A stretch of DNA of 64,000 bases from Naegleria gruberi (lineage: Eukaryota), in NCBI GenBank assembly GCA_000004985.1, contig GG738909.1; one strand, given 5' to 3'. The notes beneath the pieces are model-generated. The model did no database searches and had not been told where the DNA came from. It was given only the letters and a program-made list of their open reading frames with translations. The position numbers and the translations under genes were made by a program. Positions within the stretch are counted from its first letter, which is position 1. Each line of letters starts with the position of its first letter. This document shows positions 3,267-63,786 of the stretch, piece after piece.

Positions 3267-4952
3267 ATGACTGAGACAAGTGGTAGGGTTGTTGCTTCTG
3301 CTGATTTGAAAGAGGTGGTTGATGATCAAGTACAACAACATGCTGATGTTGTCGATAATCATCATCAACAACAATATCAGGCTAGTGCCGAGAAGGCTAT
3401 TGCTAATGGTCAATCGGATGTTGTAGTTAATGATGCTCAAGTTTTGGACAAGATGGGAGAAATTACAAAGAATGAAATGAATCAAACAGAGAGGTTTTAT
3501 TTGAGGAAGATTGTTGCCAAGACATGTAGTGATCCACCTAATTTGATAATTTATTCATTGATTATTTTATTTGGGCTATCTTCGTGGATTGCAGTGAATG
3601 GCATCTATTCAGAGATACCTCTATTGGGTTATGTCATGCCAGAAGGGTATGCTATTGCTGTGGATATGAATTTGAGTTTACAATTGGCTAATATTGTCCC
3701 CTTCATGTATTTTGTGTTTATGATTTTCAAAAAGATGATTCAAAGAAAGCTCAAACCAACTACGACAAGGAAGTCAACATTTGACATTGTGGATACAGTA
3801 TCTATTTTGAGCTTATTTGTGATTGGTATTGGAGCATTGATTGGCATGTCGTTTTTGTGGAATATTCCAATTAATGGAAGGTCATGGCCATTTTTAATAA
3901 TGATGTTCTTGGTTGGAGTTAGTGATTGTACCTCAACATTGTTGTTTTATCCATTTGTATTACATTTCAAACATGCTTATTCAAGTGCTCTATTAATTGG
4001 AGAATCCTTAACTGGTTTGATAGCTTCCATTATTTCCATTATTCAAAATTCAACTCCAACACCATTGTTCCCATTTTGGGTATTTTGCATCATTATTGCA
4101 GGTATCACTGCCATTAGTTTGGTTTCTTATTGTTTATTAAGATTTTTACCATACTCTAAAAAGGAATTGAGAAGAGATGTTGATGCTTTGGATGAGGAAA
4201 CAAGAGAATTAATAGTGAAAAAACGACCACTCATGACATGGTCTACCGTAAGGTTGATTTTTTTCCAATTCTTGATAAGCTGTTCTGAAAACGGAGTTGT
4301 TGTTTCAATCATGCCATATGTCTTTGCTCACTACAAACATCATGCCACATTGTTGCAGTATGCTATCACCATAGGTATGATTATCAGCCCAATAGCTAGT
4401 GGCGTTGCTTACCTCGTTCCATTTTACAACTTTTTCATTGCCATGTTCTGCCACTTGATTTGGATTGTTGGTGCTTGCTTTTTAACAGTTATTGCATTCA
4501 ATAATCCAAATCCTCCATTGAAATACTCGACAGCTTTCGGAGGATTCCTAGTGGTCGTGGCCATTCTCACAAAGGGATTCATGTCATTCTGTAAAACAAA
4601 AGAATTTTTACACAGCCATCAAGTCATTGAAAAGCAGGACGAAATGATTTATAAGAAATTATTATTGGAATCTAGAAAAAAGACTGAACAAACTCAACAT
4701 GTGGAAGAAAAACTCGAGCAAATTGAACCAATTAGTACTGAACAACAAGAAGCAACAATCGTTCCTAATGGAGAGGAAATTATTGACCTACCAATCAATC
4801 AAAAGAAATTAACCTTTGGAGAACGTTTAAGAGATGCTCTAACTCAAATGGATTTGAATCCTTTCCGATGTGCTGGTTTTGGAATTCAAATTGGAGCTCT
4901 TGTAGCTACAGTTACAGTGAAATTATTCTCAGACGCTCATTATTTTTCATAA
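3267..4952 (+). CDS. Riboflavin transporter-like (SLC52/RFVT family) multi-pass membrane protein.
   Basis: 561-aa ORF with about 10-11 hydrophobic helices. The segment SSWIAVNGIYSEIPLL...PEGY resembles the conserved SLC52 N-terminus (SW.AVNG.W.ELP...PEGW). Single exon. Confidence 0.55.
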   Translation: MTETSGRVVASADLKEVVDDQVQQHADVVDNHHQQQYQASAEKAIANGQSDVVVNDAQVLDKMGEITKNEMNQTERFYLRKIVAKTCSDPPNLIIYSLIILFGLSSWIAVNGIYSEIPLLGYVMPEGYAIAVDMNLSLQLANIVPFMYFVFMIFKKMIQRKLKPTTTRKSTFDIVDTVSILSLFVIGIGALIGMSFLWNIPINGRSWPFLIMMFLVGVSDCTSTLLFYPFVLHFKHAYSSALLIGESLTGLIASIISIIQNSTPTPLFPFWVFCIIIAGITAISLVSYCLLRFLPYSKKELRRDVDALDEETRELIVKKRPLMTWSTVRLIFFQFLISCSENGVVVSIMPYVFAHYKHHATLLQYAITIGMIISPIASGVAYLVPFYNFFIAMFCHLIWIVGACFLTVIAFNNPNPPLKYSTAFGGFLVVVAILTKGFMSFCKTKEFLHSHQVIEKQDEMIYKKLLLESRKKTEQTQHVEEKLEQIEPISTEQQEATIVPNGEEIIDLPINQKKLTFGERLRDALTQMDLNPFRCAGFGIQIGALVATVTVKLFSDAHYFS

Positions 4953-5089: not shown

Positions 5090-7816
5090 ATGCAAATGCT
5101 TCACATTTTGATAATAAGCGTTTTCCTCACGTTGTTGACACCAGCCATATGTCAATTTATTCCACCTGATATTGAAGTCAAACCTATTATTACTGGCCTA
5201 AAGGGACCCTCTTCACTCTTTTACCAACACGACAGTCTCTTCATCCTAGCAACTAATCAACAAATTCTACTCAAGACAGACTTTCAATCAAAGCCAAACA
5301 TTATTCTTGGCATTAACAACACTTTTGGATACAATGGAGATGGAAAACTTGCAAAGGACACCACTTTAAGTAATCCTCACGGTTTACATGTGAATGGCTC
5401 GTTCATTTATATTCCAGATAAATGGAGTCAGCGCTTGAGAATGGTCAACAAGGAAACAATGATTGTTCAAACAATTGCTGGAAATGGAATCTGTGGTTTC
5501 AGTGGTGATGGACAAAAAGTTGGAGTGCCAAATACACAATTGTGTAATCCACAAGGAGTTTTTGTGGAGAAAAATGAGATTTATATTGCAGATACTTTCA
5601 ACAATAGAATTAGAAAGATAGATTCGAATAATTTTCTTTCGACTGTTGTAGGGTCTAGCTCAATTGGTGGGTTTTCAGGGGATGGAGGTCTAGCAACAAA
5701 CGCCAAACTCTTTAGACCTGAATCTGTATTTGTGTATATGAATCAAGGCCAAACTGATATATTGATTGCCGACACTTTTAATAATAGAATCAGATTAGTC
5801 AAGAATGGTATAACCTCAACAATAGCAGGCGGAAATACCCAAGGATACAATGGAGATGGTATTCTTGCTAAAGATGCGTATCTATGTCAACCTAGCTCTG
5901 TATTTGTTACAACAGTTGGTGAAAGTCTTATTGCTGATTATTGTAATCACAAAATTAGAAGAATTTTCACAAATGGAACGATAACTAGTTTACCAATACA
6001 GGTCAGATATCCAAAATCCATTTTTCTTGATCAAACAAATGGCAATCTTTACATCTCTGAATTGGTTGATGGGACAGTTCAACAAGTGACATTTTACTGT
6101 AAAGAAGGATACAAATTGAATGATTTTCTTGTATGTGAACCTGTTTGCCAACAATCATGCAATACGAAAGGTAAATGTTTGGCTCCTGATGTTTGTGAAT
6201 GTCAGGACAGATACTATGGTGAGTTCTGTGAGGAGTTTACATGTTTTGGAATCTCAAAGGATCATCCAATGGTTTGTTCTGGACATGGATCTTGTATTTC
6301 TCCTGATTCATGTGAATGTGAAGTTAATTACTTTAACAGTAACTGCTCAGCAACTTCTTGCTTTGGAAAGAACTCAACCGAGCCATCTGTTTGCAATTCA
6401 CATGGTAAATGCACTTTATTCAACACATGTAAATGTGAATTCAACAAATATGGTGGCAATGAGTGTGAAATTCCTCTATGCAATGGAAAAAACTCTTCAG
6501 ATCCCAATGCATGCTCTGGTAATGGATTCTGTAGCACTGTCGTTTCTCCCGCTTCATGCATTTGCACTCGAGATATGAGTGGAGCATATGTAGGATCTGA
6601 TTGTCAATACCCAACCTGTATTTCAATCCCCTCTTACGAACCGAGAGTTTGCAGTGGAAATGGTCGTTGCTATGGATTTAATTTGTGTGAATGCAAAGAA
6701 GGATACGAAGGACTGTTTTGTGAATCAGTTACATGTGGAACTGGTTGCAAGATAGCTGCTTCAATTCCTGCGAGCGTTGTAGTCGGAGTTTGTGGTGTTA
6801 TTAGTTTGGTTTTGTTTCTGACGAGAACGAAACTGAAAGAATTTGCTAAAAAGCTCACATATACTGAACTTAAAGATATAGAGATAGTACCTTATCAACA
6901 TTTCTACATTGCTACAGAAGATGAAAAATACGAATACAAACTCAAAAGAATATTAGGAAAGGGAGGATTTGGTAAAATTTATGTTTTTGATGAGATTAGT
7001 GATGGGCAAACCATTGAAGTTGCAGTGAAAATCGTTGAGTCAGTTGATATGTCTGTTCTTAATGAGCCTACAACTATGAGTAGGTTACAACATACCCATA
7101 TTGTACCTATTCGTCGTTTTACAATTGTTGGTGATGGAAAGTATACTTGTTTAATTATGCCACTGTATCTCTGTGATTTGAGAAAGTGGTCTCAAAGCTC
7201 ATTGATGACCATTGAACTGATTATTGAAATTGTTAAGCAAACTGCCTTCAATATCTGCACAATATGAATATGGTCCATAGAGATCTGAAACCAGAAAACA
7301 TACTAGTTGAATCTCCAAATCCTTCACAGGATACGATCATTGATATATCCTCATTCCACTTGCGTGTTGGCGATTGGGGATCAGCCAGATTCGAATCTGT
7401 TGAGACAAGCAATGGTTTCACAGCACAGTACTGCTCACCAGAACATTTTCAAGAAGGAATAACTTCCTGCAACAAGAGTGATATTTGGAGTCTTGGATGT
7501 ATTCTCTATCAATTACTCTCATCAGATTACGAATCGAAACTAAATGTAGTGAAACAAAAAACTCAAAGTGATGAAGACGATAAGGAAATTAGGGAAACAG
7601 TAAGGGGAATGACCAAACTGGATGATTCATTCAAGCTTAATTCCATGTGTGATTTAATGCTAAATATGATCAAGTTCAACCCAGAGGAAAGGTAAGTTTG
7701 CTTTGAATCTAATAATCTTAATCATAATGGATAGAATATCTGCTGATGAAATATTGCACAGATTGAGTACCATTAATAATCAGTCAATGGATATAGCTCA
7801 GAATTCTGGCAATTAA
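5090..7816 (+). CDS. Receptor-type Ser/Thr protein kinase with a signal peptide, NHL-like repeats, Cys-rich EGF-like repeats, a TM helix and a kinase domain. Contains a 1-nt frameshift at about 7237-7245 and an intron at 7692-7734.
   Basis: - Repeated xADTFNNRIRxI units (NHL-like), then multiple CxCxxxxxGxxC EGF-like modules.
- TM segment VVGVCGVISLVLFL.
- Kinase motifs GKGGFGKIY, VAVK, HRDLKPENILV, DWG and SPE.
- The frame switches from 2 to 1 at a run of three A at 7239-7241. Restoring one A gives ...EIVKQNCLQYLHNMNMVHRDLKPEN.
- Donor GTAAGT at 7692, acceptor AG at 7733-7734, last exon 7735-7816 (...FNPEERISADEILHRL*). Confidence 0.7.
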
Positions 7817-7939: not shown

Positions 7940-9161
7940 ATGTCCTTCGATCTTCTTCCATACGACGTTCAAGGTCACATCCTAAGTTTTCTTTCCTTCC
8001 GAAATGGAGTCAAATGGATGTTCATCTCCAAAGTTTGGTACCAATTATTGAGAGAACATTTATTTTCTCAATATTATTATTGTATTACACTTTATGGAGA
8101 TAACTATTTGCAAAGGCAGGGTCATGCTGCTGTTCCGTATGGTGAGGATAAGTTGATTTTGTTTGCAGGATATGATGGTCATGTAACTGATGAACAGGTA
8201 AGTTGATTGTAAAGTTTTTAATAATATTAAAATGTTTATTGTATATTTTTTCATTACATAGACCAACGAATTGATGGTTTATGATTTGAAAAAAGATTAT
8301 CTTAAACACTTACAAAGATTATCAAAAAACTCCAAAAAAGTTCCAATAGGAAGATCTTTCTTTCCAATGTGTTCTATTGGAAACAATGAATTTGTTTTGA
8401 ATGGAGGATATTGTGACTTCATAACTGATAAGCAGTTGAACGATACTTGGACAATCTCCATTCAAAATAACAATCAACTCGAATGGAAACAAGTCAATCA
8501 AAGTGGTGAAATTCCACCCATTATGGACACCCATTCACTGGTTCACTACAATGGATATTTAGTTTTATTTGGAGGAAGTCAATCAGTTTCTGATGAATTT
8601 CAAAGTGTTTATCATGATATCTATGTTATGAAATTAGAAACTGGAGTTTGGTATAAATTGATATTGGATAGAAATAGTATTTCACCTGGGAATATCACTG
8701 GTCATACAGCACATTTAATTGAAGGAACAAATCAAATGATTTTATTTGGAGGACGAACAAATCAAGGAATTCAAAATCAAATTTGGATTCTTCACATTGT
8801 TTTACCAGATAATTCCAAATATTTCCAAGAATATTCAAAATGGGAATTAGTTAAACCAGTTTCCAAATTAATTCCACAACCAACACTTTATCATGCCTCT
8901 GTTTTGGTTGGTGATGAATTATTTATTTTCGGTGGATGGTCCACCTATAGCTCAACTAATCAATTTCTTGCATTCAATTACAAAACAAGAAACTGGAGAG
9001 ACCTTTCAAAATTAGTAATTGGTCGGACAATCAAAGAAGAATTGCCTTATTCATATGGACATACTTTGACTCTGGTGGGAAATAAGATTGTTTTGATTGG
9101 AGGATGTGGAATTAATGGTTATCAAAAGAATGTTTTAGTTTTTCTTTCATTGAAAAACTAA
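7940..9161 (+). CDS. F-box / kelch-repeat protein; join(7940..8197, 8262..9161).
   Basis: - N-terminal F-box-like LLPYDVQGHILSFLSFRNGVKWMFISKVW.
- Intron: GTAAGT donor at 8198, acceptor AG at 8260-8261 (64 nt), phase 0.
- Downstream kelch / galactose-oxidase-type repeats (LVLFGG, ILFGG, LFIFGGW, VLIGG). Confidence 0.7.
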
Positions 9162-9193: not shown

Positions 9194-10176
9194 TTAATGT
9201 TTATGATCCAATTCGAATATGTAAAAGTCATAAACTGGTTTGAAACCAAACTTTTCATAAATTCCAATTCCCATTTCAGTTGCTTCTAAAACCATTTTCG
9301 TGTAACCTAATTGTTTGGCCATGTCTATCATTGAAACCATGAGAATGGTTGCAAATCCTTGGTTTCTGTGTCCATCACGAGTTGCCAAATGATTAATAGA
9401 AGCAACATGTTTTCCCATCACTAATTTTCCACAAGCAACTATTTCCACTTGTCCATTCGAAAGTTTTTGCTTAATTCCAACAGTGAAACTTTTCACAGAC
9501 GAATCTGGAGCAACTGTCGAAGTATCATTTCTAATAATTTCCTTCAAATTATCAGAAATTTGTGGAACACCACTAAATGCATCGGATTGACAAGTCCAAA
9601 ACTGAACCATTTCCTCTGGACTTTTCATTTCTACCAATTCGAATGATTTCTTCTCATTTTCACAAATCTTTCGTCCAGAAAATATTGGAATTGACGAGTA
9701 TTCCATATTTTCCACCATCCATCTTCTCTTTTCCTGATAATATTCAGTCAAATCTTGAATTTGTAAAAGCATGACAGTTTGCATTGTCAAGCTAGAAAAG
9801 CATTCTTTCAAATTCATCTTTTCAAGCTAGAAAAGCATTCTTTCAAATTCATCTTTTTGTAAATGTAAGTGGAGCCAAATTTCAATCGTTCTTGAACTTT
9901 TTCACTCCACAGCAATTGGTATTCTTGTAAGAGAGTCAAATTTTCACTTGTGGCCATATTAATCTTGCAATAATAAAACTGTGGAGTGCCATTGAGTCCT
10001 AAATTTGAAATCCTCGTGGCTGTGTCCATCACATCCTTGGTGTATCCACCAAAAACCTCCAGATACTCCAATCCTACCAATTCAAAGTGACTCATCGTGG
10101 CGTGAGAAGTCGTAAACTCTGCAAAACTATCCTGCACCATACTCATGAGTGCATTCTCTCCTTCCAAACTTGCCAT
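9194..10176 (-). pseudogene. GNAT-family N-acetyltransferase whose reading frame is interrupted by a perfect 35-bp tandem duplication. Either a pseudogene or an assembly artefact.
   Basis: Two adjacent minus-strand ORFs both contain MNLKECFSSL. Removing one 35-bp unit at 9788-9857 fuses them into a single frame of about 315 aa. The C-terminus has the GNAT fold motif RNQGFATILM...LEATEMGIGIYEKFGFK. Confidence 0.5.
9788..9857. repeat. Perfect 2 x 35-bp tandem duplication (caagctagaaaagcattctttcaaattcatctttt) inside the GNAT coding sequence.
   Basis: Read directly: 9788-9822 is identical to 9823-9857. The unit length is not a multiple of 3, so it introduces a premature stop. Confidence 0.9.
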
Positions 10177-11436: not shown

Positions 11437-12189
11437 TTAATTCAACCAAGATTGACAGGTAGTTACATCACCTCTCTTTGCAGTTCCAACAGGTGGGAAT
11501 CTCAACCATTCTCTCATTGACACTTGACTTTTACCTAATGTGGAATCATGCATTGGCATGGTGACAACACCTTGAGAAGCACCAACTCCCCATTCAGGGG
11601 AATACAAATCAAAGATAATATTACGTGAGTGATCGAGATTTTGTTGAGCATCTCTCCAACCTTCTTGGAAAGTTTGACTGGTGACTTTGATTGGTTCAGT
11701 AAACTTGGTATTGTTAGCTCTGTAATAGAATGAATAGTAACCAAATTGTGCAATGGCATCCTTTGGAATTGGATATTGAGTCAATGGATCAACGTTAGTG
11801 GAATTCAAACTGACAACTGTCAACATGTCAGCATAAACTCTAATCAATGGACTGCCAAAGAATCTAGATTTGTTAGTAACAGCACCAACTACTGAATATC
11901 CCTCAAAACTTCCCTTTTCCAATCTGAAATATTTTGGTTGACTGTTGGCATTTGTAAAATCAATTCCAAATCTGGTTTTAAAAAATTGCAAACCTTCATT
12001 CAACTTGGCATTTGTAAAACGTTGAGTATTCAATGGATATTCCATTCTCTTTGGAATCAAATCGAATGGTAAAGCATCATCAAATAATAAACTCAATTCT
12101 GCATCTAAAAGTTTACTTGGATCGCAAGCTGCTGATGTGAAATTTACAATACAGCTTAGCAATAATAATGTTACAAGGAGTTTGTACAT
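11437..12189 (-). CDS. Secreted protein (signal peptide) homologous to the N-terminal domain of the adjacent PAP2/haloperoxidase-like gene.
   Basis: 250-aa ORF with a hydrophobic N-terminus (MYKLLVTLLLLSCIVNFTSA). The block LQFFKTRFGIDFT...GYSVVGA..RFFGSPLIRVYADMLTVVSL aligns with FYRNQYGLDIS...GYPTLAG...VYDDAFAIMLTQ of the 12687 gene. Confidence 0.5.
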   Translation of the reverse strand: MYKLLVTLLLLSCIVNFTSAACDPSKLLDAELSLLFDDALPFDLIPKRMEYPLNTQRFTNAKLNEGLQFFKTRFGIDFTNANSQPKYFRLEKGSFEGYSVVGAVTNKSRFFGSPLIRVYADMLTVVSLNSTNVDPLTQYPIPKDAIAQFGYYSFYYRANNTKFTEPIKVTSQTFQEGWRDAQQNLDHSRNIIFDLYSPEWGVGASQGVVTMPMHDSTLGKSQVSMREWLRFPPVGTAKRGDVTTCQSWLN

Positions 12190-12686
12190 GATGTGGAGTG
12201 TGTGTTTGGTTGTTTTTTTTTGGATTTTGTTTATTGAAATGAAGATTGATTGGCGTTTTGTTGAAATTGAGTGACTTGTGGCAGGCTGAATTGATTGAGG
12301 ATCTAATTATACGACAGGAAGGCGCTGTTCTCTGTTACATTATGAAATCGCCCACTATTTATTATTGAACATGTTTGTAAATCTAAGAGTTTTGCTTCCT
12401 TTTTAAAAAACATGTCACTTGCCAATAAAATATAAAAAGTAATGTTTTAATAAACAAAGAAGGAAACAGCCATGTAAGTAAACTAAATAACCTGCTCCTA
12501 TTTAAAATACCGACCTGAAATGTTGATGTGTTCAAGAACGCCAGCTGTCACTTCAACTCATTTCACACACAACCTGCCTCAATAACCAGAGAACTCGATT
12601 CTTTAAATACCTACACCAAACAACTCCAAATACCTTTCACAACACAAAAAAACAAAACAACTTGTATAATAATTAAACTGTATAAT

Positions 12687-14624
12687 ATGTCAGCAAAACA
12701 ACTGACACGATTCCTCGTGTTTACAATGCTGCTGATGATTTCAACACTCATCATGATGGTAAGCTCCTACTCACCTACCACAGAAACTGATCCACAAGAA
12801 TTCGATGCTCAATTCCACTTGTCATACTTGGCAGATGGCATCCAAGCAGGTGACATTGCTCCAATCACTCGTTATCCAGATGCCTATGAAAAAGCCACTT
12901 CTTTCTATAGAAATCAATATGGTTTAGATATCTCTGATAATGGTTCTCGTCTCCCACCTGGCACTCAATTTTTCACATCAGTCGGTGATAAATATGTCGT
13001 TGAATATGCAAAGGTTCGTGGTTATCCAACTTTGGCTGGTTCTCAAGATTTGGGAGTGTATGATGATGCCTTTGCTATCATGCTCACTCAACCACTTGTT
13101 GTTCATGGTGCTTATGGAGGTAAGAATGGTACTTGGGTTGATAGTGGCTCAGTATTGCCATTTGGGTTTTATACCTATTTTTGGAAGGTTAATGGAACGA
13201 CTGCCTTTCCAAGAATTACTTGGTCTAGTCCAATGCCAATGAGAATTTCAGCTGATGGTTCATTGGTTGTCGATTGTGAATTGACTTCAAATATTTGGGG
13301 TAAAGGAATGGCTAGAGGTTTGAATTTGATTAGAATTAATCCTGCCACTGGTCAATATTATGTCTCTGTTGTCAGTTCTCATACTTTCCCAGTTAGTCAA
13401 ACTGATATTAGTCCAAAATGTGCTGCCATTACCACTGAAAAGGATATTTTCAATGAAGATTTCATTATCAAGTGGAATAATGTCTTGTTGGCAACTGTCA
13501 GAGATTTCAAAGTTGCTCCACCTGTTGCTTCCAGAGCTATGGCTATTGTTCACTCTGCTGTTGATGATGCTTTGGGTTTCTGTAGAAGATTGAGATATAC
13601 TGGTAGACCATGTGATTATGCCACCATTGCTACAACTGTTTCCTATGCTGCTCATAGAGTTCTTGGTCAATTGTTCCCAAATAATATTGATTGTTATACT
13701 GCTGCTTTAAAGAGCGCTTTGAAATGTAATGGTTGTCAAGAATATGAAAGCTCAGAATTAACTAGAATTGGTAAGGTTGCAATCTTGGCTGCCGATAGAG
13801 TTTTGAGATCGAGAGATAATGATGGTAGTTCTGATTTTGTTGATTATCAATTCAGAGATGGTCCAATGGATTATCAAAGTCATGCTCCAAACTATGTCAG
13901 AATTCCATTGTTGCCTCAATGGTCAGCTGTTGAACCATTTGGAATTCAAGATGTTGAAAGTTTCAGACAAGGTCCTCCACCACAAATTGGAACTCCTGCA
14001 TTCGAAACTGCCTATGATGAAGTTTTCTTGTACGGTAGAAATGATTCGAGCGTTAGAACCTTCGATCAAAGAAGAATTTCTTGGTTCTGGGATGATGGTG
14101 CAGGTACTGCCACTCCACCAGGTCACTGGAATGTCATCCTTCAATCAATTATTAGAAGTCAAGGAATTACTGACACTTTCAAGATTTCAGCCATGTTCAA
14201 ACTCTTGGGTTGTTCAGTTGCTGATGCTGGTATCGTCTCTTGGGATCACAAATATTTCTATAATGCCCTTCGTCCAGTAACTGCTGTCAATAACAGAAAT
14301 AGAAATCTCAATTGGTTCCCTCTCTTGGCCACTCCACCATTCCCAGAATATACAAGTGGACACTCAACATTCTCTGGAGCTGCTGCCAGAATTTTGAGTT
14401 TATTGTTGGGTAGTGATGATATAACCTTTGATGTGACAAGTGATGGTTACAAGTATCACACCAGAACTTTTAACAGATTGTCAGATGCTGCTAAGGAAGC
14501 TGGTAAATCAAGAATTTATGGTGGTATTCATTTTGAATATGCCAATCAAGCTGGTTGGAATTCTGGTGTTGCTGTTGCCAATGCTGTTTACAATCAATTG
14601 TGTAGAAATGGAAATTGTCTTTAA
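12687..14624 (+). CDS. Secreted PAP2-superfamily (acid phosphatase / vanadium-dependent haloperoxidase-like) protein with an extra N-terminal domain.
   Basis: - The ATG at 12687 is followed by a signal/anchor sequence (FLVFTMLLMISTLIMMVSS).
- The C-terminal region carries the PAP2/haloperoxidase signature: KYFYNALRP, PEYTSGHSTFSGAAARIL, SRIYGGIHFEYAN.
- The track's 12528 start is a GTG. Confidence 0.6.
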   Translation: MSAKQLTRFLVFTMLLMISTLIMMVSSYSPTTETDPQEFDAQFHLSYLADGIQAGDIAPITRYPDAYEKATSFYRNQYGLDISDNGSRLPPGTQFFTSVGDKYVVEYAKVRGYPTLAGSQDLGVYDDAFAIMLTQPLVVHGAYGGKNGTWVDSGSVLPFGFYTYFWKVNGTTAFPRITWSSPMPMRISADGSLVVDCELTSNIWGKGMARGLNLIRINPATGQYYVSVVSSHTFPVSQTDISPKCAAITTEKDIFNEDFIIKWNNVLLATVRDFKVAPPVASRAMAIVHSAVDDALGFCRRLRYTGRPCDYATIATTVSYAAHRVLGQLFPNNIDCYTAALKSALKCNGCQEYESSELTRIGKVAILAADRVLRSRDNDGSSDFVDYQFRDGPMDYQSHAPNYVRIPLLPQWSAVEPFGIQDVESFRQGPPPQIGTPAFETAYDEVFLYGRNDSSVRTFDQRRISWFWDDGAGTATPPGHWNVILQSIIRSQGITDTFKISAMFKLLGCSVADAGIVSWDHKYFYNALRPVTAVNNRNRNLNWFPLLATPPFPEYTSGHSTFSGAAARILSLLLGSDDITFDVTSDGYKYHTRTFNRLSDAAKEAGKSRIYGGIHFEYANQAGWNSGVAVANAVYNQLCRNGNCL

Positions 14625-21104: not shown

Positions 21105-24100
21105 ATGGATATGCGTGGATTGTCAGTGTTCATTTCCGACATTAGAAAATGTTAGTATATTGTTTTTTTGTTGGTTTTTTAACTGGCTTTTGGATATGAT
21201 GTTTTTGTTGTTGTTGTTTAAATATTCTTGTCATTATTAATTATAATCGATCCTGATCGTATTGTTGTATTATAATTACTTCCTTTTCAACAATACCAAT
21301 ACGATATTTAACAATGATTTAACTTGTGGATTATACACTCAACAATAATAATACAATAACAAAATAATAACAACAACAAATACTTGCGCGATGATACAAT
21401 AATTGCTCGCTGCTCTATCCAACACCTCTATTGTTGGTCGTCATCGATAATAACAACAACAAAATTTTTATTAATATTACACAATAATTAACAGCAACTA
21501 CAAAGGAAGAAGAACAATCTAAAGTAGAAAAAGAATTAGCCAAGATCAGAGGTAAATTCAAGAATGGTGGAGCTCTTAAAGGATATGATCGTAAGAAGTA
21601 TATCTGTAAATTGCTCTATATTTACATGCTTGGTTATGAAATTGAATTTGGTCACATTGAAGCCGTCAATTTGTTGGCTTCACCAAATTACTCTGAAAAA
21701 CATATGGGTTATCTTGCTTGTTCATTGTTGTTGAACGAAAATCACGAAATGGTTACACTTATTACCCAATGTATGAAGAATGATTTGAATAGCAAAAATC
21801 CAAATGATCAATGTTTGGCACTTACAGCTATTGCCAACATTGGTGGTAAGGAACAAGCTGAAGCTCTTGCTCACGACGTACAAAAATTGCTCATCTCCAA
21901 CGAAACCAAATTGACTGTCAGAAAAAAGGCTGCTCTTACTCTCTTGAATTTGCATAGAAAATACCCAGAAAGTTTGCCTCCAGATTCTTGGTCCGAAAAG
22001 GTTATTGCTCTTATCAATGGTAGAGATCTTGGTGTTATTACCAGTGTTATGAGTTTAATTTTGGGACTTGCCGAAAAGAATCCAGAAGCTTATCAAGATG
22101 CAGTTTCAAAGACTGCTCGTTTATTGATGAAGTTGGTTTTGAACAGAGAATATTCTACATCATATTTGTACTACAAGATTGCTGCCCCATGGTTGCAAGT
22201 TAAAGCTTTCCAATTACTCCAATACTACCCAGTTCCAGAAGATAAGGCCATCTATGACTCTATCATCCAAGCTATTGAAAAAGTTATTCAAATTGCTAAG
22301 AAATCAAAGGAAACTACATCAAAGAGTGTGAGTCAAATTAATGCTGCTCACAGTGTTCTCTTCGAAGCAATGAATCTTGCTATTCACTACGATTCATCAA
22401 AGACAATCTTGGTGACAGCTTGTTCCATGTTAACTAAATATTTGAAGGATAGAGAAACTAACTTGCGTTATCTTGCTCTTGATACTCTCTCACGTATGGC
22501 TTACTCTCAATTCGATGAAGTTTTGGCTACTATCAGAAAGGAACAAGATACCATTTTACTTGCTTTGAAGGATCCTGATATCAGTATTAGAAGAAGAGCT
22601 CTCGATTTGTTGTACAGTATGTGTAACAGAGATAATGCTGGTGAAATTGTTGGTGAATTGCTCAACTATTTGCCACTTTCCGACTATGCTATCAGAGAAG
22701 AATTGGTTTTGAAGATTGCCATTCTTGCTGAAAAGTTCTCTGTTGATCTCACTTGGTATGTCGATGTTGTTCTCAATTTGATTTCCCAAGCTGGTGACTT
22801 TGTTGCTGATGATATTTGGCACAGAGTTATCCAAATCGTCACAAACAAGGGTGAAGAATTACAAAAGTACACTGCTCAAACTGTTTTCAGTGCTGTTTCT
22901 TCTCCAGCTGCTCATGAAACTTGTGTCAAGATTTCTGGTTACATTTTCGGTGAATTTGGTGACTTGATTGCTGATAATCCTCAAACTGATGCTTTTTCTC
23001 AATATGAATTGATCTTGTCCAAGTTCAACTTGTGTTCAACCACTACTAAGTGTCATTTGTTCAACTCTTTGATGAAGTTGTACAATTTGTATCCTGATAA
23101 CCAAGGACTCCGTGATAATATTAAGGATGTTTTCGAAAAGCACACCAATTCTTTCGATGCTGAATTGCAACAAAGATCTGCTGAATATTTGGCTCTCATC
23201 AATACTGGTGATGAAGATCTTATTCAAGCTGTCATGGATAACATGCCAATGTATCCAGAACGTGACTCTCAAGTCATTAAGAGATTGATGGAAAAAGAAG
23301 CTGCCAAGAAGCGTGGTGCTACTGGTACAGGAAGAGAAAACAACGAAGACGAAGAAGAAGAAAATCCAGATTTGGATGTTCAAGTACCTGAAACCAAACA
23401 AGGTGGAAATGATTTGTTGGATATGCTCGATATGGGTGGTTCTTCAAATAACAATAATGCTGGAGGATATAGTATGGATGACATTTTGGGAGGATTTGGT
23501 GGACCAGTTTCTCAACCACAACCAACTAATAATGGAGGAGGTTTGAGCATGGACGATATTTTGGGAGGATTTGGTGGACCAGTTACTCAACCACCTGTTC
23601 AACAACCACCACAAAACAATGTTGGTGATTTCTTTGGAGGAGGTGTTAACATTGCTGCTCAAGCTGCCAACATGGGTAAGCAAAAGAAGGAACAAAGAGA
23701 TACTACCGGATTCAACTTTGATGATGTTGTAGTTGCTAACAGAGATAATGCTCTTGAACAAAACGAACAAGTCCATCAAGACGCTGCTGTTAAGCATCAA
23801 GTTTTGCTCAAGTCTAACGAAGGTGTTGCCATTGAAGACGAACATTTGCAAGTCAAGATTAAGACTGAATATCACGGATGTAAGGGTAGACTTATTCTCC
23901 TCTATGGTAACAAGACTACTAATCCATTGACTCAATTCAAGGTTCACATTCTCGTTCCAAAGGAATTGGAAGCTCAAATTTCCAAGGTTCCACCAATGAT
24001 TTCACCAAAGACTCAAGTCCAACAATACGTTGACTTGGTTGCTAAGGGCCCATTCAGCCAATTGACTGATTTGGATTTGTACTTTGAAGCTAATCGTAGA

Positions 24101-24502
24101 TATTACAGATTCAACATCAAGTTGCCAATCGTTCCACACAAGTTTGTTGAACCATTGGTCATCCAAGGTGCTGAAAACTTCTTTAAACAATGGCACGCAA
24201 TTGGAAAGGAACAAGAAGTCCAAAAGATTTTCCCATGCACTCCTGTATATTCTGATGTAAATGCCTGTGCTAAGGTTTTGTCTGAAGGTTTCCGTTTGGC
24301 CATTTTGACTGGTATTGACAATCCAAGTAATATTGTTGCTGCTGGTTCTTTCTTCTATGATCCTGTTGGTAAGGTTAACGTTTTATTACGTCTTGAATAC
24401 AATGCTCCAAAGCAAGCTTACAGATTAACTGTCAAGGCTCAAGATGCCACTATTGCTCAACAAGTTTTCAATTACATCTTACAAGAACTCACCTCCCAAT
24501 AA
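21105..24502 (+). CDS. AP2A: AP-2 complex alpha-adaptin; join(21105..21150, 21495..24502).
   Basis: - Exon 1 encodes MDMRGLSVFISDIRK, the conserved alpha-adaptin N-terminus.
- Intron: GTTAGT donor at 21151, acceptor AG at 21493-21494 (about 344 nt), phase 1.
- Exon 2 continues STTKEEEQSKVEKELAKIRGKFK...YICKLLYIYMLGYEIEFGHIEAVNLL.
- HEAT/ARM trunk, Gly/Pro/Gln-rich hinge with an internal repeat (MDDILGGFGGPVxQP twice) and a C-terminal appendage. Confidence 0.8.
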
Positions 24503-24622: not shown

Positions 24623-24714
24623 TACTCCAAAGTATTATTTGGAGATAGGTAGGCTTCATAACAGAGCTCAAAATAAATTACTCCAAAGTATTATTTGGAG
24701 ATAGGTAGGCTTCT
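24623..24714. repeat. 36-bp direct repeat (ttactccaaagtattatttggagataggtaggcttc) present twice, 20 bp apart. It spans the stop codon and 3' UTR of cyclase copy 1 and is absent from copy 2.
   Basis: Read directly: 24623-24658 is identical to 24679-24714. The homologous 3' end of the paralog at 53225-53290 carries a single copy. Confidence 0.7.
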
Positions 24715-27700
24715 TGATTGATTGTCAAGGTAATATTATCATTGTTTCTTGTTGGTGTTTTGGGTTCATTCAATGTTTCAAGATTTGCAGAATTTTTCTT
24801 TTGTAAAATGTTTAAACTTGTTCTCAACATGTCAGTGAAGGATGGAACAAGAGCTGGAGTGTGATGTTTCTCATGCAACATGTAAGCAATACATTCACCT
24901 TTTCCTTTCACATTTAAATGTCTTTCTTCAAAAGTGAAACCCAAATCATAAACTCTTTCGTAGGTTGATCTGGAAATTTGAATTCTTCCTGGAATTGAAT
25001 TAGATTCCATTCTTGAAGCTGTATTAATTGTATCTCCCCATAAATCCTATTTAATTAAATATTAAGATGAAGTATTGAAAATGTACATGTTAAAATGTTA
25101 AAATGTTGAAATTAAAAACATACATATGCAAATTTCTTCCTCCCAATAACACCTGCAATAACACTTCCAGTATTAATACCAACACGAATATTAATTTGTT
25201 CAGATGGATGTTTTCCTGATTTTGAATTAAATCTTTGTAAAACATCAAATGTATCAATGGAAAATCTCAAAATTCTTTCAGGATGATCTGATTGTGCATT
25301 CAATCCATGTAATCCACCCACACAAAAATATGAATCTCCAATCGTTTTAATCTTTTCCAAATTATACTTGTCTGTCAAATCATCAAATCCAATTACAATT
25401 TCATTCAACATTTGAACCAATTCAGATGCTTGAATTCCAGTACTCAATTTTGTAAATCCCACCATGTCACTAAAAAAACATGAAACATCATTGAATTTCT
25501 CTGCAATATAAGTTTCTCCTGATTTCAATTTACTTGCTACTGCACTTGGTAAAATATTCAATAATAATTCTTCAGAATGTTTCTTTTCTTCTGTCAATAA
25601 TGAATTATGTTTCTTCTCTGTTGTAATATCCTTAATGAAACAAGTTACAACACTTTGAGAATTGTGAAGAGTGGCAAAAATATTGACACGTGATGGGAAG
25701 CTTGTTTGATTCTTTCTGATACATTCCAATTCAATAGAATCTCCTTTCGAATCACCTCTTGCTGCATTCACCAACATTTCATCAATGAGGTTTTTAATTT
25801 TCGATTGCTCATTCTTTTCAAATAATTGATACAATGATCTTCCAATCGTTTCTGTTTGATTGTATCCAAATATCTTTTGAGCTGCTGGATTGAATATTTC
25901 AATATCAACCTTCTCTCCACTGCACATCACTGCTCCATCTACAGATGCATTCAAAATGCTTCGAACTTTTGAGTCACCTTCCCCTAAATTTGACTTCTTT
26001 TTGAGGAGGGAAGACAATGTATTTGGAATATGGTGATGTACAATGTAATTCTTGATATTTTCATTAGAATCCATTAACTCAATTGATAAATAGTTAAAAA
26101 GAAGACGAAGTTGTTGGACAGAGTTGGCATGTTGATGTAAGGACCAACGAATGGCAAGTGAAATGGAGATAATTGCAATAAATCCAACGAAACTGAATGC
26201 GTAGACAAGTTCTTCATCAGTTATGGCAGCATCTTTTGAAAAAACAGTAGAAAAATCAATCAATTGATCTGAAATGGCTCTGGAAAGATGGAAATGTTTA
26301 ACAAACGTTTCGAACAGCTTCAAGTTATTAATTTTTCCGTTTTCATCCATTAGCTCCATTATTTCATTGGAAATTGTGACGAAATTTGTAATCATATCAT
26401 CAATTCCCATAACGCACGAATGATTACCATCTTCTTTAAACATGTCAGTCAATGTACAATTTTCCTGACCTGCCACGAGTAAATTTACATCATCAAATTT
26501 TCCAAGTATGGTATTTTCTGGATTCTCTCCAATGGATGTTCCATAAATACATAAATTCCAATGGTTTTTCAAGTCACTTGATTTTTCAGTAACATAATGC
26601 TTTGGATTGGATGTAAAATTGTATAAATTAGAAACTCTGAAGAAAGCATCATTGTTGGAGCGAAATCCAGATATAATATACTTCTCAGTGATAAAATTAC
26701 TCAAATATTGAATATCTTCAAAAGTTTGGAATGATTCTTTCATAATAACATAGGATCCGTAACATTGATTCACATTTTGTAAAGTTTCCAATAAGAATAG
26801 CCCACAACAAACTGAAACAATTAGAGAGAGAATAAGAGCCAATACAACTACAACACTCCTTGGATATTTCCAAACACTCTTGACTGGATGAGTTGATGTA
26901 TCATCATTGACTACCTTACTCAATTCATGGAATAATCTTCCTGCATCATTTTTTGAAACATTCTTCTCAATGAGAAGAACTATCTTTGTTATAACAGATA
27001 GATCTAACTTAGAGTAGAATACATAAAGAGATGTATAGAGGAAGTAGACTGTCACAATGATGGAAAAGTAAATGATAAAAGTATTAGTAATTAGTTGAGT
27101 TTCATCCTTTGAACTGGAAACAAAATTCACACAAAAATCAGAATAGGCAGTAACCATTCTCTCGGAATTAAAGTACTGCACATGATTAGAATAAAACTCT
27201 AGAACAACTAACTTACCAATAACATAAAGGGATAACTTGACAGAAAACTCTCTAGGTCTGCTAGTCCAAATTTAGAAATAGTTTCAGAGTGTGTATAGAA
27301 TAAATTTGTAATATCTGCAATAGTGGTATTAGTAGTGGTCGAAATGTTATAAACCTTATCGATTTCTGTTGCTGGCCATGAAGTTGGTAAATTGAAAGTG
27401 TAATAAATTTCATGATATTCAGAGTACATTTCCTGTGTGAATTTTCCGTCATGAACCAATTCTCGCACTGATTTCAAAATGTCCCTGTAAGTATTAATGT
27501 GTTCTAACATTTCTTCATGATAATGTTCCAAAGAAGTATATCCATACTTGGACATGACATTCATCCATTCAACCATTGAGTGATTGTACAAATATGTGAT
27601 TGGTTGAAAAGCTCTCATACTAGACATGATCTGAACAGAGGCGCCAACTGGAGCACAAGCTGTTTCCACTATTTTAACAGTGCCTGAAATATAGGATGAG

Positions 27701-30087
27701 AATGAAACACTCAAAGCCAAACTAACACTCAAAAACAAGATGGAAAATAAGACAAATAGAGAGAAGAGGAAAACTTGGAGAGTGTGTCTGTGTGGAAGGC
27801 TCAGTGAAGTTCTGAATACGTTTTCCTTTCTAAATTCTGGATTATTCTCAATTCCATTGAATTCTGGATTGGTTTCTGCCTCTTTCTGATCGCCATAGAA
27901 TGAACTGCTCTCACTTCTAATGTCGTGTTCCTGGAGATGGATACCAATATTTGGGCCTTCTTGTGTTGGAACTATTCTGTTTTTAAACTTGGACTTTTGA
28001 TTCCTCTTCTTTCTTAATTGAGCATTTCTTTTGGTTTCTTCCTCTTCCAAACTTGATGCTTCAGCATACAGCTCTTGAGCAGCATCCTTATTAAACTTGA
28101 ATTCTTCAATGTATTTGGCAAAATTTCGTAATAAATTCTTGTCATTCTTATAAATTGCCAACATGTTCAAAAACTTGGTTTCACATTCATTGGAAATAAT
28201 TCCCATTCTTACAATGATTGATTCAATCTTATCCCTCAAGACACATTCCTGGAGCATTTCCTTCCAGAACATTCTGTGAAGGGCTTTCAATTCATTTTGT
28301 CTCCTTTCGAGAATGAACATTACTTCACTCATTTCTTCAGTATTTTTGGCATTTGGATTAATTTGATGAACTATAATGTCAACTTCCTTCTGTTTCAAAT
28401 AGATGAGGAATCTATACCATGTATTTGGTCTCTTTTTTATGGCTCTCCTTAAAATTCCTTTGGAAAATGTTGTGGCATTGACATCATTTACGAGACAATT
28501 TGATGCTATAGAACTTGATAAGAGAAGAATATCATTATCGAGTTGTGAGTTGAGTGATGATATACCTCTAACAAGAGAAAGAGACATTTTCAGATTGCTC
28601 AACATATTTGGATTGCTGGAAAGAGTTGGATCTTCTTCATCTGTTGGAATCTTTTCCTTAATGGAGAATTTCAAAAAAAGTTTCAGATAATTCAACTTTT
28701 TGGATTCTAGAAAGTATTGGTAAATATTAATGGAATCCTTCTCGATTGCCTTTTCCAGTAAATCAGGGAAACCATTATTAGATTCATTTCTAATACCTTC
28801 AATTACAATAAATCGAACACTTCTAATCAAAATTCTTGTAATCGCCTCCATTACCATCATTCCAACAAAAAAAGAGATGATAATCATTGCCAAAGTCATT
28901 CCAGCTAGACCAATTCCCAGCACATTATCAACTGACTTGTAAATTGCCGAAAGATTTGGATTATTTACAACGCCACTAATTAGAGAACCAAAACTTGAGA
29001 AGATCCTTGCAGATAACACTCCAACCATAATGGAATTCTCAAATCTCTTAAAATATGGAACGTTTTTCGAAAAACCAATCATTAAACCAATCGAAACTAT
29101 CAAATGCACAATCGATCTGATAAATGCATACTGAGGAGGAATCACATAATGTGAAAGAATTTGGAATTGAGTACAAATCATTGTTCCAATAAGGAAAATT
29201 GGATGATCAGAAGTGAATGGAGAAAAGTGTTGGGGATGACAATTCGTCACAATTAATAGAGAAAAACATGATAATATCATTTGAATGATTATTCCAATAA
29301 TCATGATGGCCATGAAGGCAATATTAATAGTTGAATAACATTCAATGTTCTGGTTTGAATATTGTAAAAAACGGTTGAGAACTGAGACAGAACCAAGATT
29401 ACAATCAAGTGGTGTTGTCAATAGGTAAACAGCTGGAAGAGAAACGAGTAGAAAAAGTTTCGAACCAAGGGCCAAACCTTTCTTTGTCCATTTCAAATAT
29501 TGAGAAGTTGTTTTGTAAGCATACACACTCCAAACCAAGTAAACAATAAATAACAGCTCTACAGCTATAACCACAAACGCTAGAGCCAACGAACCTATAT
29601 AAGGTAACCTTTCGAATGATAAAGTCAAAGGATAGTTCAATACAGAAAAAACCCATGTTCCCCACTCTCCGTATTTCATTTCCATTCCAAGATTTGGCAA
29701 GAATATACCAATCCAAAATACATAAGTATGAAATAGTAAACTAATCAAATAGGAATATAGACCTTCTCTTAATTGTGCCTCTTGCATGAAGAATATAAAA
29801 TCCATAAGTTGATTTCTGAGCTTGATTCCAATCGAAATCTCAGAGCCAGTAATATCTGTTGTTGAATATTTGGAATGTTGGGACGAGAAGGATACATTTG
29901 ATGAGCTAGAGGTATGTTGTCCATGAACTGAGGGAATATTCAGATAACTTGTTGGAGTCGTCTGGTTTCTAGCAACGGTTGACCCACGACGTGAAGTACT
30001 AGCAATAGAGATTGAATCCTCTTCTATGGCAATATTGTTGTTGTTAGTATTATTCAATTGATTTATACTAGCATTGGGATGCAACAT
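24678..30087 (-). CDS. Multi-TM, PAS-domain, class III adenylyl/guanylyl cyclase, copy 1; complement(join(24678..25046, 25124..27175, 27217..30087)), about 1763 aa.
   Basis: - Two clusters of TM helices, a PAS-like segment (ILNASVDGAVMCSGEKVDIEIFNPAAQKIFGYNQTETIGRSLYQLF), then the cyclase domain (FSDMVGFTKL, KIKTIGDSYFCVGGL, DLWGDTINTASRMES).
- Intron 27176-27216 (41 nt, GTAAGT..CAG, phase 0).
- Intron 25047-25123 (77 nt, GTATGT..AG, phase 0) splits FAY|DLWGDT.
- Paralogous to 47986-53257. Confidence 0.8.
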
Positions 30088-32405: not shown

Positions 32406-32430
32406 CAACCAACCTACATTAAAAGTTATT

Positions 32431-33898: not shown

Positions 33899-33998
33899 TA
33901 AATATGACAATGTACCAAAGGTTAGTTTAAAAAAAAGAAAACAAAGGTAAAGAAAAAGGAGTGAATACATTTATATTTCACACTTTAAGAAATTGAAT

Positions 33999-34119
33999 GG
34001 CTACGGCCATATCACGATGAATGCACCTCATCCCGTCCGATTTGAGAAGTTAAGCATCGTCGAGCCACATCAGTACTGAGGTTGGAGACAACTTGGGAAC
34101 CTGTGGTGCTGTAGTCTTT
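33999..34119 (+). rRNA. 5S: 5S ribosomal RNA gene (solitary).
   Basis: GGCTACGGCCATATCACGATGAATGCACCTCATCCCGTCCGATTTGAGAAGTTAAGCATCGTCGAGCC...GGGAACCTGTGGTGCTGTAGTC matches the universal eukaryotic 5S pattern (GCCTACGGCCATACC...CCCGTCCGATCTG..GAAGTTAAGC...GGGAA...GGTGCTGTAGGC). About 120 nt. Confidence 0.85.
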
Positions 34120-36341: not shown

Positions 36342-36824
36342 TTATACACTCCTATTTACAGAATTTTCCAACCAATTCGAATTGGTGGAATCACAAATAC
36401 TCAACACCAAATATTCAAACTTGCTGAGCCATTTCATATTCAGGTGTTGTTTCCTTATTTTCTGAACAACATTTCGGTAGTGCAATGAACGAGCATTCTG
36501 TTTCTGTTCTTCCCTATCAACGTGCGTGTGTGAAGAATTCCTTCTCGTTGTCGTTTTTGTGGCCTTTCCTTTCGTCCAGTGCATGGCCAATAATCGTTTG
36601 ATGAGGATTTGTTCGAGTCTTGATGAGTGCTGTTGCTGTTTGATTGGCAAGTATGTTGCATCTGTTGATAATCTCCTTTCCAACTCTAAATCTTCGTCTG
36701 GATGTGATGAAAAGTTTTGTTGATGAGGACCTAGTTGAGTTGTGTGAATACTAATAGGAATTTCCATTACACTACTATCTTCCTCTTGTTGTTTAACAAT
36801 GGGACTAGTTGTTTCTATGGCCAT
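36342..36824 (-). CDS. Hypothetical protein (160 aa).
   Basis: ORF only. No motif recognised. Confidence 0.2.
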   Translation of the reverse strand: MAIETTSPIVKQQEEDSSVMEIPISIHTTQLGPHQQNFSSHPDEDLELERRLSTDATYLPIKQQQHSSRLEQILIKRLLAMHWTKGKATKTTTRRNSSHTHVDREEQKQNARSLHYRNVVQKIRKQHLNMKWLSKFEYLVLSICDSTNSNWLENSVNRSV

Positions 36825-41972: not shown

Positions 41973-42044
41973 TCCCGTGTAGTCCAATGGCTAGGATACC
42001 TGGCTTTCACCCAGGAGGTCCGGGTTCAATTCCCGGCATGGGAG
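41973..42044 (+). tRNA. tRNA-Glu (anticodon TTC).
   Basis: TCCCGTGTAGTCCAATGGCTAGGATACCTGGCTTTCACCCAGGAGGTCCGGGTTCAATTCCCGGCATGGGA folds as a cloverleaf. The 7-bp acceptor stem has one G-U pair and the anticodon loop is CTTTCAC. No encoded CCA. T-runs follow at 42051-42060. Confidence 0.85.
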
Positions 42045-62048: not shown

Positions 62049-62226
62049 CGTCGATACACTTTGAAATATTTGTTTTTGTGTTTTGATGGTGCCCCTGTTT
62101 ATATTAACTGCGAGATGATTGTTTGTACGATGCTACAAGCTTACTAATATCTCATAAATCTGCTACCGTATTGAACGTTTACGGTTGTGATACAGTATTT
62201 GAATACAAAATACAATCTAACATGTG

Positions 62227-63690: not shown

Positions 63691-63786
63691 GTTTTTTTGT
63701 AAGGTTACAACAACTTAATTAACGCCAATCTTGCTTCACCTTTAATAAAAACAAGAACAAATTTCCAATACTCAACTCTTTCAACT

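What the first reader, a model, noticed from the sequence alone, without database searches (positions are those of the whole stretch)
9788..9857. Perfect 35-bp tandem duplication disrupting a GNAT acetyltransferase gene
Two identical 35-bp units are adjacent inside the coding sequence. Because 35 is not a multiple of 3, the first copy runs into a stop (…KKMNLKECFSSLKR*) and the protein restarts in the second (MNLKECFSSLTMQ…). Deleting one unit yields a clean GNAT ORF of about 315 aa.

Zero divergence between the units means the event is extremely recent, or it is an assembly artefact. If real, it is a replication-slippage-type null allele caught in the act.
Basis: seen in the sequence. Interest (0 to 1): 0.5.

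Follow-up and report, generated by a model that had tools for sequence, protein, structure and literature searches.

The report
Frameshifting tandem duplication in acetyltransferase gene
A perfect 35-base head-to-tail duplication splits a two-domain acetyltransferase gene of the amoeba Naegleria gruberi into two reading frames; this is an ordinary frameshift allele (or a sequencing error) and it explains why the public gene model covers only the last 207 codons.

Summary
Window 9787-9857 holds two identical 35-bp units plus one shared base. It is the only perfect tandem duplication with a period above 12 in the 64 kb window, and none appeared in shuffles.

The window is Naegleria gruberi, a eukaryote. 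The downstream ORF (9194-9817, minus strand, 207 aa) is identical to XP_002671031.1 / NAEGRDRAFT_81661.

Removing one unit fuses the 120-aa upstream ORF to it and gives 315 aa. That protein aligns in one frame, aa 3-315, with an uninterrupted 453-aa N. fowleri homologue. The upstream ORF alone matches that homologue's N-terminal part at E=3e-19. The ancestral gene was therefore a single intronless ORF, with an N-terminal domain followed by a C-terminal GNAT domain, and its fold resembles tandem-GNAT proteins.

The duplication shifts the frame and creates a TGA after codon 120. Splicing cannot rescue it, because the unit has no GT on the coding strand.

I could not obtain any independent sequence of this locus, so a real allele (about 0.6) and an assembly or cloning artefact (about 0.3) remain unresolved.

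Interest is low.

The parts
9822..9856 (-). Copy 1 of the 35-bp unit, upstream in gene orientation. Coding-strand sequence AAAGATGAATTTGAAAGAATGCTTTTCTAGCTTGA, read in the native frame as K-K-M-N-L-K-E-C-F-S-S-L.
9787..9821 (-). Copy 2 of the 35-bp unit, downstream in gene orientation and identical to copy 1. In the frame inherited from copy 1 it reads K-R-stop. In the native frame it reads M-N-L-K-E-C-F-S-S-L and continues into the rest of the gene.
9857..9857 (.). A single shared base (T on the + strand) that extends the period-35 identity to 71 nt. This is the only perfect microhomology at the junction.
   Evidence: one search shows the imperfect TT(G/T)T context
9814..10176 (-). ORF A, 120 codons: the native N-terminal 118 aa plus K-R, then the premature TGA. 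It is homologous to aa 74-201 of the N. fowleri homologue P0002 (E=3e-19). It is not in public protein collections as a separate product.
9814..9816 (-). Premature stop codon TGA created by the frameshift. It overlaps the ATG of ORF B (ATGA).
9194..9817 (-). ORF B, 207 aa, identical to XP_002671031.1 / EFC38287.1 (NAEGRDRAFT_81661, UniRef D2VY18). It corresponds to aa 109-315 of the repaired protein and includes the complete C-terminal GNAT domain.
9233..9445 (-). Core of the GNAT domain matched by Pfam (repaired aa 233-303; Acetyltransf_1, _7 and _10).
9350..9367 (-). Acetyl-CoA binding motif A of the form R-x-x-G-x-A (RNQGFA, repaired aa 259-264). G262 is invariant across 77 homologues.

Best explanation
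The locus is an intronless Naegleria gruberi gene that originally encoded a 315-aa two-domain acetyltransferase. It has an N-terminal accessory domain, probably a degenerate GNAT, and a C-terminal catalytic GNAT domain. A 35-bp segment encoding K107-L118 has been duplicated head to tail. This segment lies in a poorly conserved, length-variable loop just after the conserved ERLKFGSTYIY block. Because 35 is not a multiple of 3, translation from the native ATG (10176) shifts frame in the second copy and stops at TGA 9816-9814 after 120 codons, leaving the catalytic domain out of frame.

Shown: the duplication, the frameshift, the single-ORF architecture in relatives, and the identity of the downstream ORF with the public gene model.

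Inferred:
- The duplication is a real genomic allele of the sequenced strain. It is probably one haplotype of a heterozygous strain, or a recent mutation.
- It arose in one step by a templated duplication process, either polymerase slippage or template switch, or fill-in and end-joining of a staggered break.
- It is a loss-of-function or strongly hypomorphic allele, because a eukaryotic ribosome will rarely reinitiate after a 120-codon ORF.
For: - Duplication: it is perfect and unique in the window.
- Organism and gene: ORF B equals the N. gruberi protein XP_002671031.1.
- Repaired product: 315 aa, with the GNAT domain above the Pfam threshold.
- Closest relative: the exhaustive HMMER scan finds P0002 (453 aa, E=7.5e-63), encoded by one uninterrupted ORF in N. 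fowleri GCA_008403515.1 and again in an independent Logan contig.
- One polypeptide: repaired aa 3-315 align to that ORF in a single frame, and ORF A alone aligns to its N-terminal part at E=3e-19.
- Architecture: more distant relatives share the N-terminal domain plus C-terminal GNAT layout.
- No decay: both half-ORFs are still open although stops occur at 0.058 per codon. The chance of an open frame is 7e-4 for 120 codons and 4e-6 for 207.
- Not at a scaffold gap: the window has no N runs, so the site lies inside a long contiguous stretch.
- Heterozygosity: it is reported for N. gruberi (PMC9928731), so a frameshift allele in the consensus is plausible.
- No splicing rescue: there is no GT in the unit. 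The shortest frame-restoring GT-AG span is 71 nt, has a poor donor (GTTCAA) and would remove the conserved block.
Against: No reads and no second assembly, transcript or allele of this locus could be obtained. A cloning, consensus or assembly artefact therefore cannot be excluded, and a perfect duplication is exactly what such an artefact would look like. Loss of function is inferred, not shown: the catalytic domain is intact in ORF B, whose ATG overlaps the upstream stop (ATGA). No expression data were available.
Confidence: 0.6

Rival explanations
1. Sequencing, cloning or assembly artefact. The genome carries a single 35-bp unit, and the second copy was introduced during library construction, consensus building or gap closure. 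The real gene would then be the intact 315-aa ORF, and the public 207-aa model would be an annotation casualty.
For: The two copies are 100% identical. Both half-ORFs show no other defect. Nothing in public collections independently supports the two-unit state.
Against: The site lies inside a 64-kb stretch without any N, not at a contig junction. No other perfect duplication of this kind occurs in the window, so there is no sign of a systematic assembler defect. From general knowledge, reads of several hundred bases span a 70-bp feature completely, so an overlap-consensus assembler has no reason to create it unless coverage is very low. Small tandem duplications are a common class of natural insertion.
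Confidence: 0.3
2. The split arrangement is functional. In this reading the 207-aa C-terminal product (ORF B, the annotated protein) is made and active. It would arise either from an internal transcription start or by termination-reinitiation at the overlapping AUGA, possibly together with the 120-aa N-terminal fragment.
For: ORF B retains the entire GNAT core and the RxxGxA motif. It includes the confidently modelled strand 117-127 and helix 133-146. Its ATG overlaps the stop of ORF A.
Against: All relatives with sufficient length carry the N-terminal region fused to the GNAT domain. ORF A is still fully open, which fits a very young lesion rather than a settled new gene structure. From general knowledge, reinitiation after a long ORF is inefficient in eukaryotes without dedicated signals. 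There are no expression data.
Confidence: 0.07
3. One 35-nt unit, or a longer span around it, is removed as a spliceosomal intron, so the mRNA encodes the intact protein.
For: N. gruberi does have very short introns. A 41-nt GTAAGT...CAG intron is seen at about 27176-27216 (-) in this window. Removing any 35 nt within the repeat would restore the frame.
Against: The unit contains no GT on the coding strand. The only GT-AG spans that restore the frame start at or upstream of 9897 with poor donors and delete conserved residues (ERLKFGSTYIY). The GC-AG options are 23 nt or remove coding sequence.
Confidence: 0.01

Closest known systems
Naegleria fowleri homologue P0002 (453 aa; GCA_008403515.1, contig VFQX01000017.1, locus L001:5001-6362)
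   Same: It has the same two-part architecture in one polypeptide. Identity is 47% over the matched stretches. The blocks NGTPQFYY, ERLxFGSxYxY, TMQ, FWTCQSDAF and INHxATRxGHRN are conserved, and the gene is intronless.
   Different: The ORF is uninterrupted. It is longer, with a low-complexity N-terminal extension and about 30 extra residues exactly where the N. gruberi duplication sits. Neighbouring genes within 5 kb are not shared, so orthology as opposed to paralogy is not established.
Tandem-GNAT (two-domain GNAT) acetyltransferases, e.g. Legionella VipF (7wx5, 6wqb), Kribbella 4ius, Staphylococcus 3frm, mycothiol synthase MshD (1ozp), N-myristoyltransferases
   Same: The AlphaFold model of the repaired protein aligns over about 240-270 columns with these two-domain proteins (Foldseek probability 1.0, E down to 1.7e-8). 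The C-terminal half is a confident GNAT fold.
   Different: Sequence identity is only 10-15%, TM-scores are about 0.4, and residues 33-89 of the N-terminal half are modelled with pLDDT below 50. A second GNAT-like domain is therefore suggested but not demonstrated.
Short tandem-duplication insertions as a mutation class (replication slippage or template switching; fill-in and end-joining of staggered breaks). This comparison rests on my general knowledge and was not tested here.
   Same: There are two perfect head-to-tail copies and minimal junction homology. The frameshift follows from a unit length that is not a multiple of 3.
   Different: Nothing distinguishes this case from the class. The mechanism cannot be assigned from one junction with 1 nt of microhomology.
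Glucosamine-6-phosphate N-acetyltransferase (GNA1), the name UniRef gives to D2VY18
   Same: It shares the generic GNAT fold. A. fumigatus GNA1 (6tdh) appears at rank 39 of the fold search, with 145 aligned columns and 18% identity.
   Different: No solved GNA1 appears among the sequence matches at E<=0.1. The relatives are two-domain proteins roughly twice the length of the solved GNA1 chain 6tdh (164 aa). The name looks like an automatic label.

Membership tests
GNAT (GCN5-related N-acetyltransferase) superfamily | Profile match to a GNAT family model above the curated threshold | tested here: met
   PF00583 scores 33.9 bits against a cut-off of 20.7. PF13508 (29.5 vs 27) and PF13673 (26.6 vs 23.6) also pass, at aa 233-303.
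GNAT (GCN5-related N-acetyltransferase) superfamily | Acetyl-CoA binding motif A, Q/R-x-x-G-x-G/A | tested here: met
   RNQGFA at aa 259-264. G262 is invariant in the 77-sequence alignment.
GNAT (GCN5-related N-acetyltransferase) superfamily | Mixed alpha/beta GNAT fold | tested here: met
   The AlphaFold2 model has pLDDT above 90 over most of aa 160-310. Foldseek gives 236 PDB matches at E<=0.001, and the listed top matches are GNAT-fold acyltransferases.
GNAT (GCN5-related N-acetyltransferase) superfamily | Acetyl-transfer activity | not testable with these tools
   This needs an enzyme assay.
Tandem-GNAT two-domain acetyltransferases | Two GNAT-like domains in one chain | tested here: inconclusive
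   The best fold matches are two-domain GNAT proteins aligned over about 245 columns. However, TM is about 0.4 and the N-terminal residues 33-89 have pLDDT below 50.
Glucosamine-6-phosphate N-acetyltransferase (GNA1) | Specific sequence similarity to characterised GNA1 enzymes | tested here: not met
   No GNA1 chain appears among the PDB sequence matches at E<=0.1. There is only generic fold similarity (6tdh, rank 39).
Tandem duplication mutation | Two adjacent head-to-tail copies with nothing between them | tested here: met
   9787-9821 is identical to 9822-9856, with 100% identity.
Tandem duplication mutation | Single-copy ancestral state documented in an allele or a close relative | tested here: inconclusive
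   The N. fowleri homologue has one continuous ORF across the site, but it is too divergent for DNA-level comparison. No other N. gruberi sequence was found.
Replication-slippage product | Short direct repeats (several nt of microhomology) flanking the duplicated unit | tested here: not met
   There is only 1 nt of perfect microhomology, and TT(G/T)T matches at 3 of 4 positions.
Spliceosomal intron | GT...AG (or GC...AG) boundaries that give an in-frame product retaining conserved residues | tested here: not met
   There is no GT in the unit. All frame-restoring spans delete conserved sequence or are too short.
Assembly or sequencing artefact | Reads support only one unit | not testable with these tools
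   No read data are accessible, and the public collections hold no independent copy.

The most novel reading that the evidence does not exclude
The duplication is real and the split gene still works. Under this reading, ribosomes terminating at the TGA of ORF A reinitiate at the overlapping ATG (ATGA). This would yield the N-terminal fragment and the catalytic GNAT domain as two polypeptides that may reassemble. It would be a freshly born 'gene fission' of a tandem-GNAT enzyme in a eukaryote.
Probability: 0.03. Interest if true: 0.5.

Novelty: new member of a known kind. Interest (0 to 1): 0.15.

Why it matters
The main value is for annotation. The public N. gruberi gene model NAEGRDRAFT_81661 (207 aa, labelled glucosamine-6-phosphate N-acetyltransferase in UniRef) is the C-terminal remnant of a 315-aa two-domain GNAT gene. 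The N-terminal 118 codons are unannotated and the functional label is unsupported. If reads confirm the duplication, it is one datable frameshift allele in a heterozygous laboratory strain. That has minor use for studying small-insertion mutagenesis or allele-specific expression in Naegleria. It does not bear on any open biological question.

Tried and rejected
1. Independent copies of the locus.
- The exact look-ups of the repaired 315-aa protein and of ORF A in the 15-billion-protein collection found neither.
- The gene-position look-ups for ORF B, ORF A and the upstream neighbour 11437-12189 were all 'not on record'.
- The exact 29-mer scan of JGI metagenome contigs gave 0 hits.
- The protein-pattern scan of the same collection gave 100 pattern hits, none confirmed.
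- The real-versus-artefact question therefore stays open.

2. Intron rescue. I enumerated every GT/GC...AG span of 20-600 nt that removes the stop and keeps an open frame. None is credible.

3. Paralogue in the window showing the single-unit state. tblastn of the repaired protein finds only the locus itself.

4. Synteny with N. fowleri to prove orthology. None of nine neighbouring window ORFs matches within +/-5 kb of the N. fowleri gene.

5. Hairpins or long direct repeats that could explain the breakpoints. Only short, weak repeats were found.

6. Literature. There is no mention of the locus tag, and the N. gruberi genome paper is not held.

7. The bacterial-style reading that 'the protein restarts' by translational coupling at ATGA. 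I rejected this as the default because the organism is a eukaryote, and kept it only as the low-probability novel case.

Full report
**1. The observation**

The sequence at 9787-9857 is a perfect tandem duplication.
- Tandem Repeats Finder gives period 35, 2.0 copies, 100% matches, no indels and score 142.
- Direct comparison shows 9787-9821 identical to 9822-9856. The period-35 identity continues for one more base, to 9857, so the unit boundary is ambiguous by 1 nt.
- The unit occurs exactly twice in the window even with three mismatches allowed, and never in 100 dinucleotide-preserving shuffles.
- An exhaustive scan for perfect tandem duplications with units of 8-399 bp finds nothing else with a period above 12 in the 64 kb.
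- The window contains no N.

**2. Organism and gene**

The window is 33% G+C with moderate coding density. The ORF downstream of the repeat (9817..9194, minus strand, 207 aa) is identical over its full length to a Naegleria gruberi protein: EFC38287.1 / XP_002671031.1, NAEGRDRAFT_81661, UniRef D2VY18, on a 250,472-bp record. The window is therefore nuclear DNA of a eukaryote, the amoeboflagellate N. gruberi.

The neighbours fit this:
- a kelch-repeat protein (8271-9161)
- an SLC52-type riboflavin transporter (3267-4952)
- an NHL/EGF receptor kinase (5090-7267)
- a PAP2 protein (12528-14624)

**3. Anatomy, minus strand**
- Translation from ATG 10176 runs for 118 native codons and enters the first copy, which encodes K107-K-M-N-L-K-E-C-F-S-S-L118.
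- In the second copy it reads K-R-TGA (stop at 9816-9814). This is ORF A, 120 aa.
- The second copy also contains the same ATG as the first (M109), now at 9817-9815. From there ORF B (207 aa) runs in the native frame to the stop at 9194. This ATG overlaps the premature stop, giving ATGA.
- Deleting either unit gives one 315-codon ORF.

**4. Was the ancestral gene one ORF?**

Yes.
- An exhaustive HMMER scan of 1.84 billion representatives with the repaired protein finds P0002 as the best non-self match (453 aa, E=7.5e-63, 47% identity).
- P0002 is encoded by a single uninterrupted ORF in N. fowleri GCA_008403515.1 (L001:5001-6362) and again in an independent Logan contig (L002).
- By tblastn, repaired residues 3-315 align to that ORF in one frame.
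- ORF A alone aligns to P0002 residues 74-201 with E=3e-19.
- More distant relatives (P0006, P0008, P0010, P0054) share the same layout: an N-terminal region of about 150 aa followed by a C-terminal GNAT domain.

ORF A is thus real coding sequence from the same gene as ORF B. The public 207-aa model is a truncated remnant.

The duplicated codons sit directly after the conserved block ERLKFGSTYIY. At this point N. fowleri carries about 30 extra residues, and the structure model is of low confidence there (pLDDT about 52). This is a length-variable loop.

**5. What the protein is**
- Pfam GNAT models match aa 233-303 above their curated thresholds.
- The acetyl-CoA motif R-x-x-G-x-A is present (RNQGFA, aa 259-264). 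Its glycine is invariant among 77 homologues.
- An AlphaFold2 model built on that alignment (mean pLDDT 76, pTM 0.77) is confident for aa 117-146 and 160-310 and poor for aa 33-89.
- Foldseek against the PDB puts two-domain (tandem) GNAT proteins first: Legionella VipF, 4ius, 3frm, the clavulanate tandem GNAT, MAB_4324, MshD and N-myristoyltransferases. They align over about 240-270 columns but with TM of only about 0.4.
- I read this as a tandem-GNAT-like enzyme with a degenerate N-terminal domain. Membership of that architecture remains 'inconclusive'.
- The UniRef label 'glucosamine 6-phosphate N-acetyltransferase' has no specific support. No GNA1 appears among the PDB sequence matches at E<=0.1, and there is only generic fold similarity.

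**6. Can expression bypass the frameshift?**

Splicing cannot.
- The unit has no GT on the coding strand.
- Among all GT/GC...AG spans of 20-600 nt that restore an open frame, the shortest GT-AG one is 71 nt (9897..9827). It has a poor donor (GTTCAA) and would delete the conserved ERLKFGSTYIY block.
- For comparison, a genuine N. gruberi intron seen elsewhere in this window is 41 nt with GTAAGT...CAG (about 27176-27216, minus strand). Short introns exist here, but this is not one.
- Termination-reinitiation at the overlapping ATGA is formally possible. It is not expected to be efficient after a 120-codon ORF in a eukaryote (general knowledge). I keep it as a low-probability reading.

**7. Real or artefact?**

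This is the key open point and I could not settle it.
- The repaired 315-aa protein and ORF A are both absent from the 15-billion-protein collection.
- A word-indexed search with the repaired protein finds only the public 207-aa entry.
- Gene-position look-ups for ORF A, ORF B and the upstream neighbour are all 'not on record'.
- An exact 29-mer scan and a protein-pattern scan of the JGI metagenome contigs found nothing.

In favour of a real allele:
- The site is inside a long gap-free stretch.
- There is no sign of a systematic duplication artefact in the window.
- N. gruberi is reported to be heterozygous (PMC9928731), so frameshift alleles in a consensus assembly are expected.
- Short tandem duplications are a common natural insertion type (general knowledge).

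In favour of an artefact:
- The copies are perfectly identical.
- Both half-ORFs are completely intact. Stops occur at 0.058 per codon, so the chance of an open frame is 7e-4 and 4e-6 respectively.

Both observations fit a very young real mutation equally well. My estimate is 0.6 real, 0.3 artefact.

**8.
- **Age.** With zero differences in 35 paired sites, the 95% upper bound on per-site divergence since the event is about 4.3%. The event is much younger than the N. gruberi / N. fowleri split, but it need not be 'extremely recent'.
- **Mechanism.** The junction has 1 nt of perfect microhomology, with TT(G/T)T matching at 3 of 4 positions, and no notable hairpin. Classical slippage between pre-existing direct repeats is therefore not specifically supported. 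Template switching, or fill-in and end-joining of a staggered break, fits equally well (inference).
- **Null allele.** The catalytic domain is untouched, so loss of function depends on translation, which was not tested.

**9. Verdict**

This is an ordinary frameshifting tandem duplication, or an artefact that mimics one, in an annotated eukaryotic gene. The useful outcome is a corrected gene structure and a caution about the functional label. Interest is low.

Noticed in passing
window 24655-25981 and 51946-53280: A pair of inverted repeats about 1.3 kb long and 98-100% identical. They form the 3' ends and downstream flanks of two oppositely oriented PAS + adenylate/guanylate cyclase genes (25112-30087 minus; 47986-52815 plus). 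Elsewhere the two proteins are only about 47-64% identical. The near-identical 3' block looks like recent gene conversion between diverged paralogues.
   Followed up: partly
window about 27176-27216 (-): A 41-nt GTAAGT...CAG intron joins ORFs 27208-30087 and 25112-27181 into one cyclase gene. The paralogue at 47986-52815 has no intron at this position. This shows that very short introns exist in this genome.
   Followed up: partly
window 32423-33914 and 62211-63716: A second inverted duplicate of about 1.5 kb, 96-98% identical. It carries ORFs of 431 aa and 355 aa with no Pfam match and purine-rich 18-bp microrepeats. It may be a repeated element or a young gene duplicate.
   Followed up: partly
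window 33999-34117 (+): A 5S rRNA gene (Rfam RF00001, 105 bits) lies about 85 bp to the right of the 32.4-33.9 kb repeat arm. No 5S copy was found next to the other arm within the window.
   Followed up: no
window 41973-42044 (+): A tRNA-Glu(TTC) gene.
   Followed up: no
window 23453-23594 (+): A 75-bp tandem repeat, 1.9 copies, 86-87% identical, in frame inside the alpha-adaptin gene 21611-24502 and located between the Adaptin_N and appendage domains. It is an older, in-frame example of the same kind of event as the 35-bp duplication.
   Followed up: partly
window 36342-36824 (-) and 37133-37615 (-): Two adjacent ORFs of identical length (160 aa) on the same strand, possibly a tandem gene pair. 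They were not compared.
   Followed up: no
window 9194-10176 (-); public entries XP_002671031.1 / UniRef D2VY18: The public gene model covers only the C-terminal 207 codons. The UniRef name 'Glucosamine 6-phosphate N-acetyltransferase' is not supported by sequence comparison with solved structures.
   Followed up: yes
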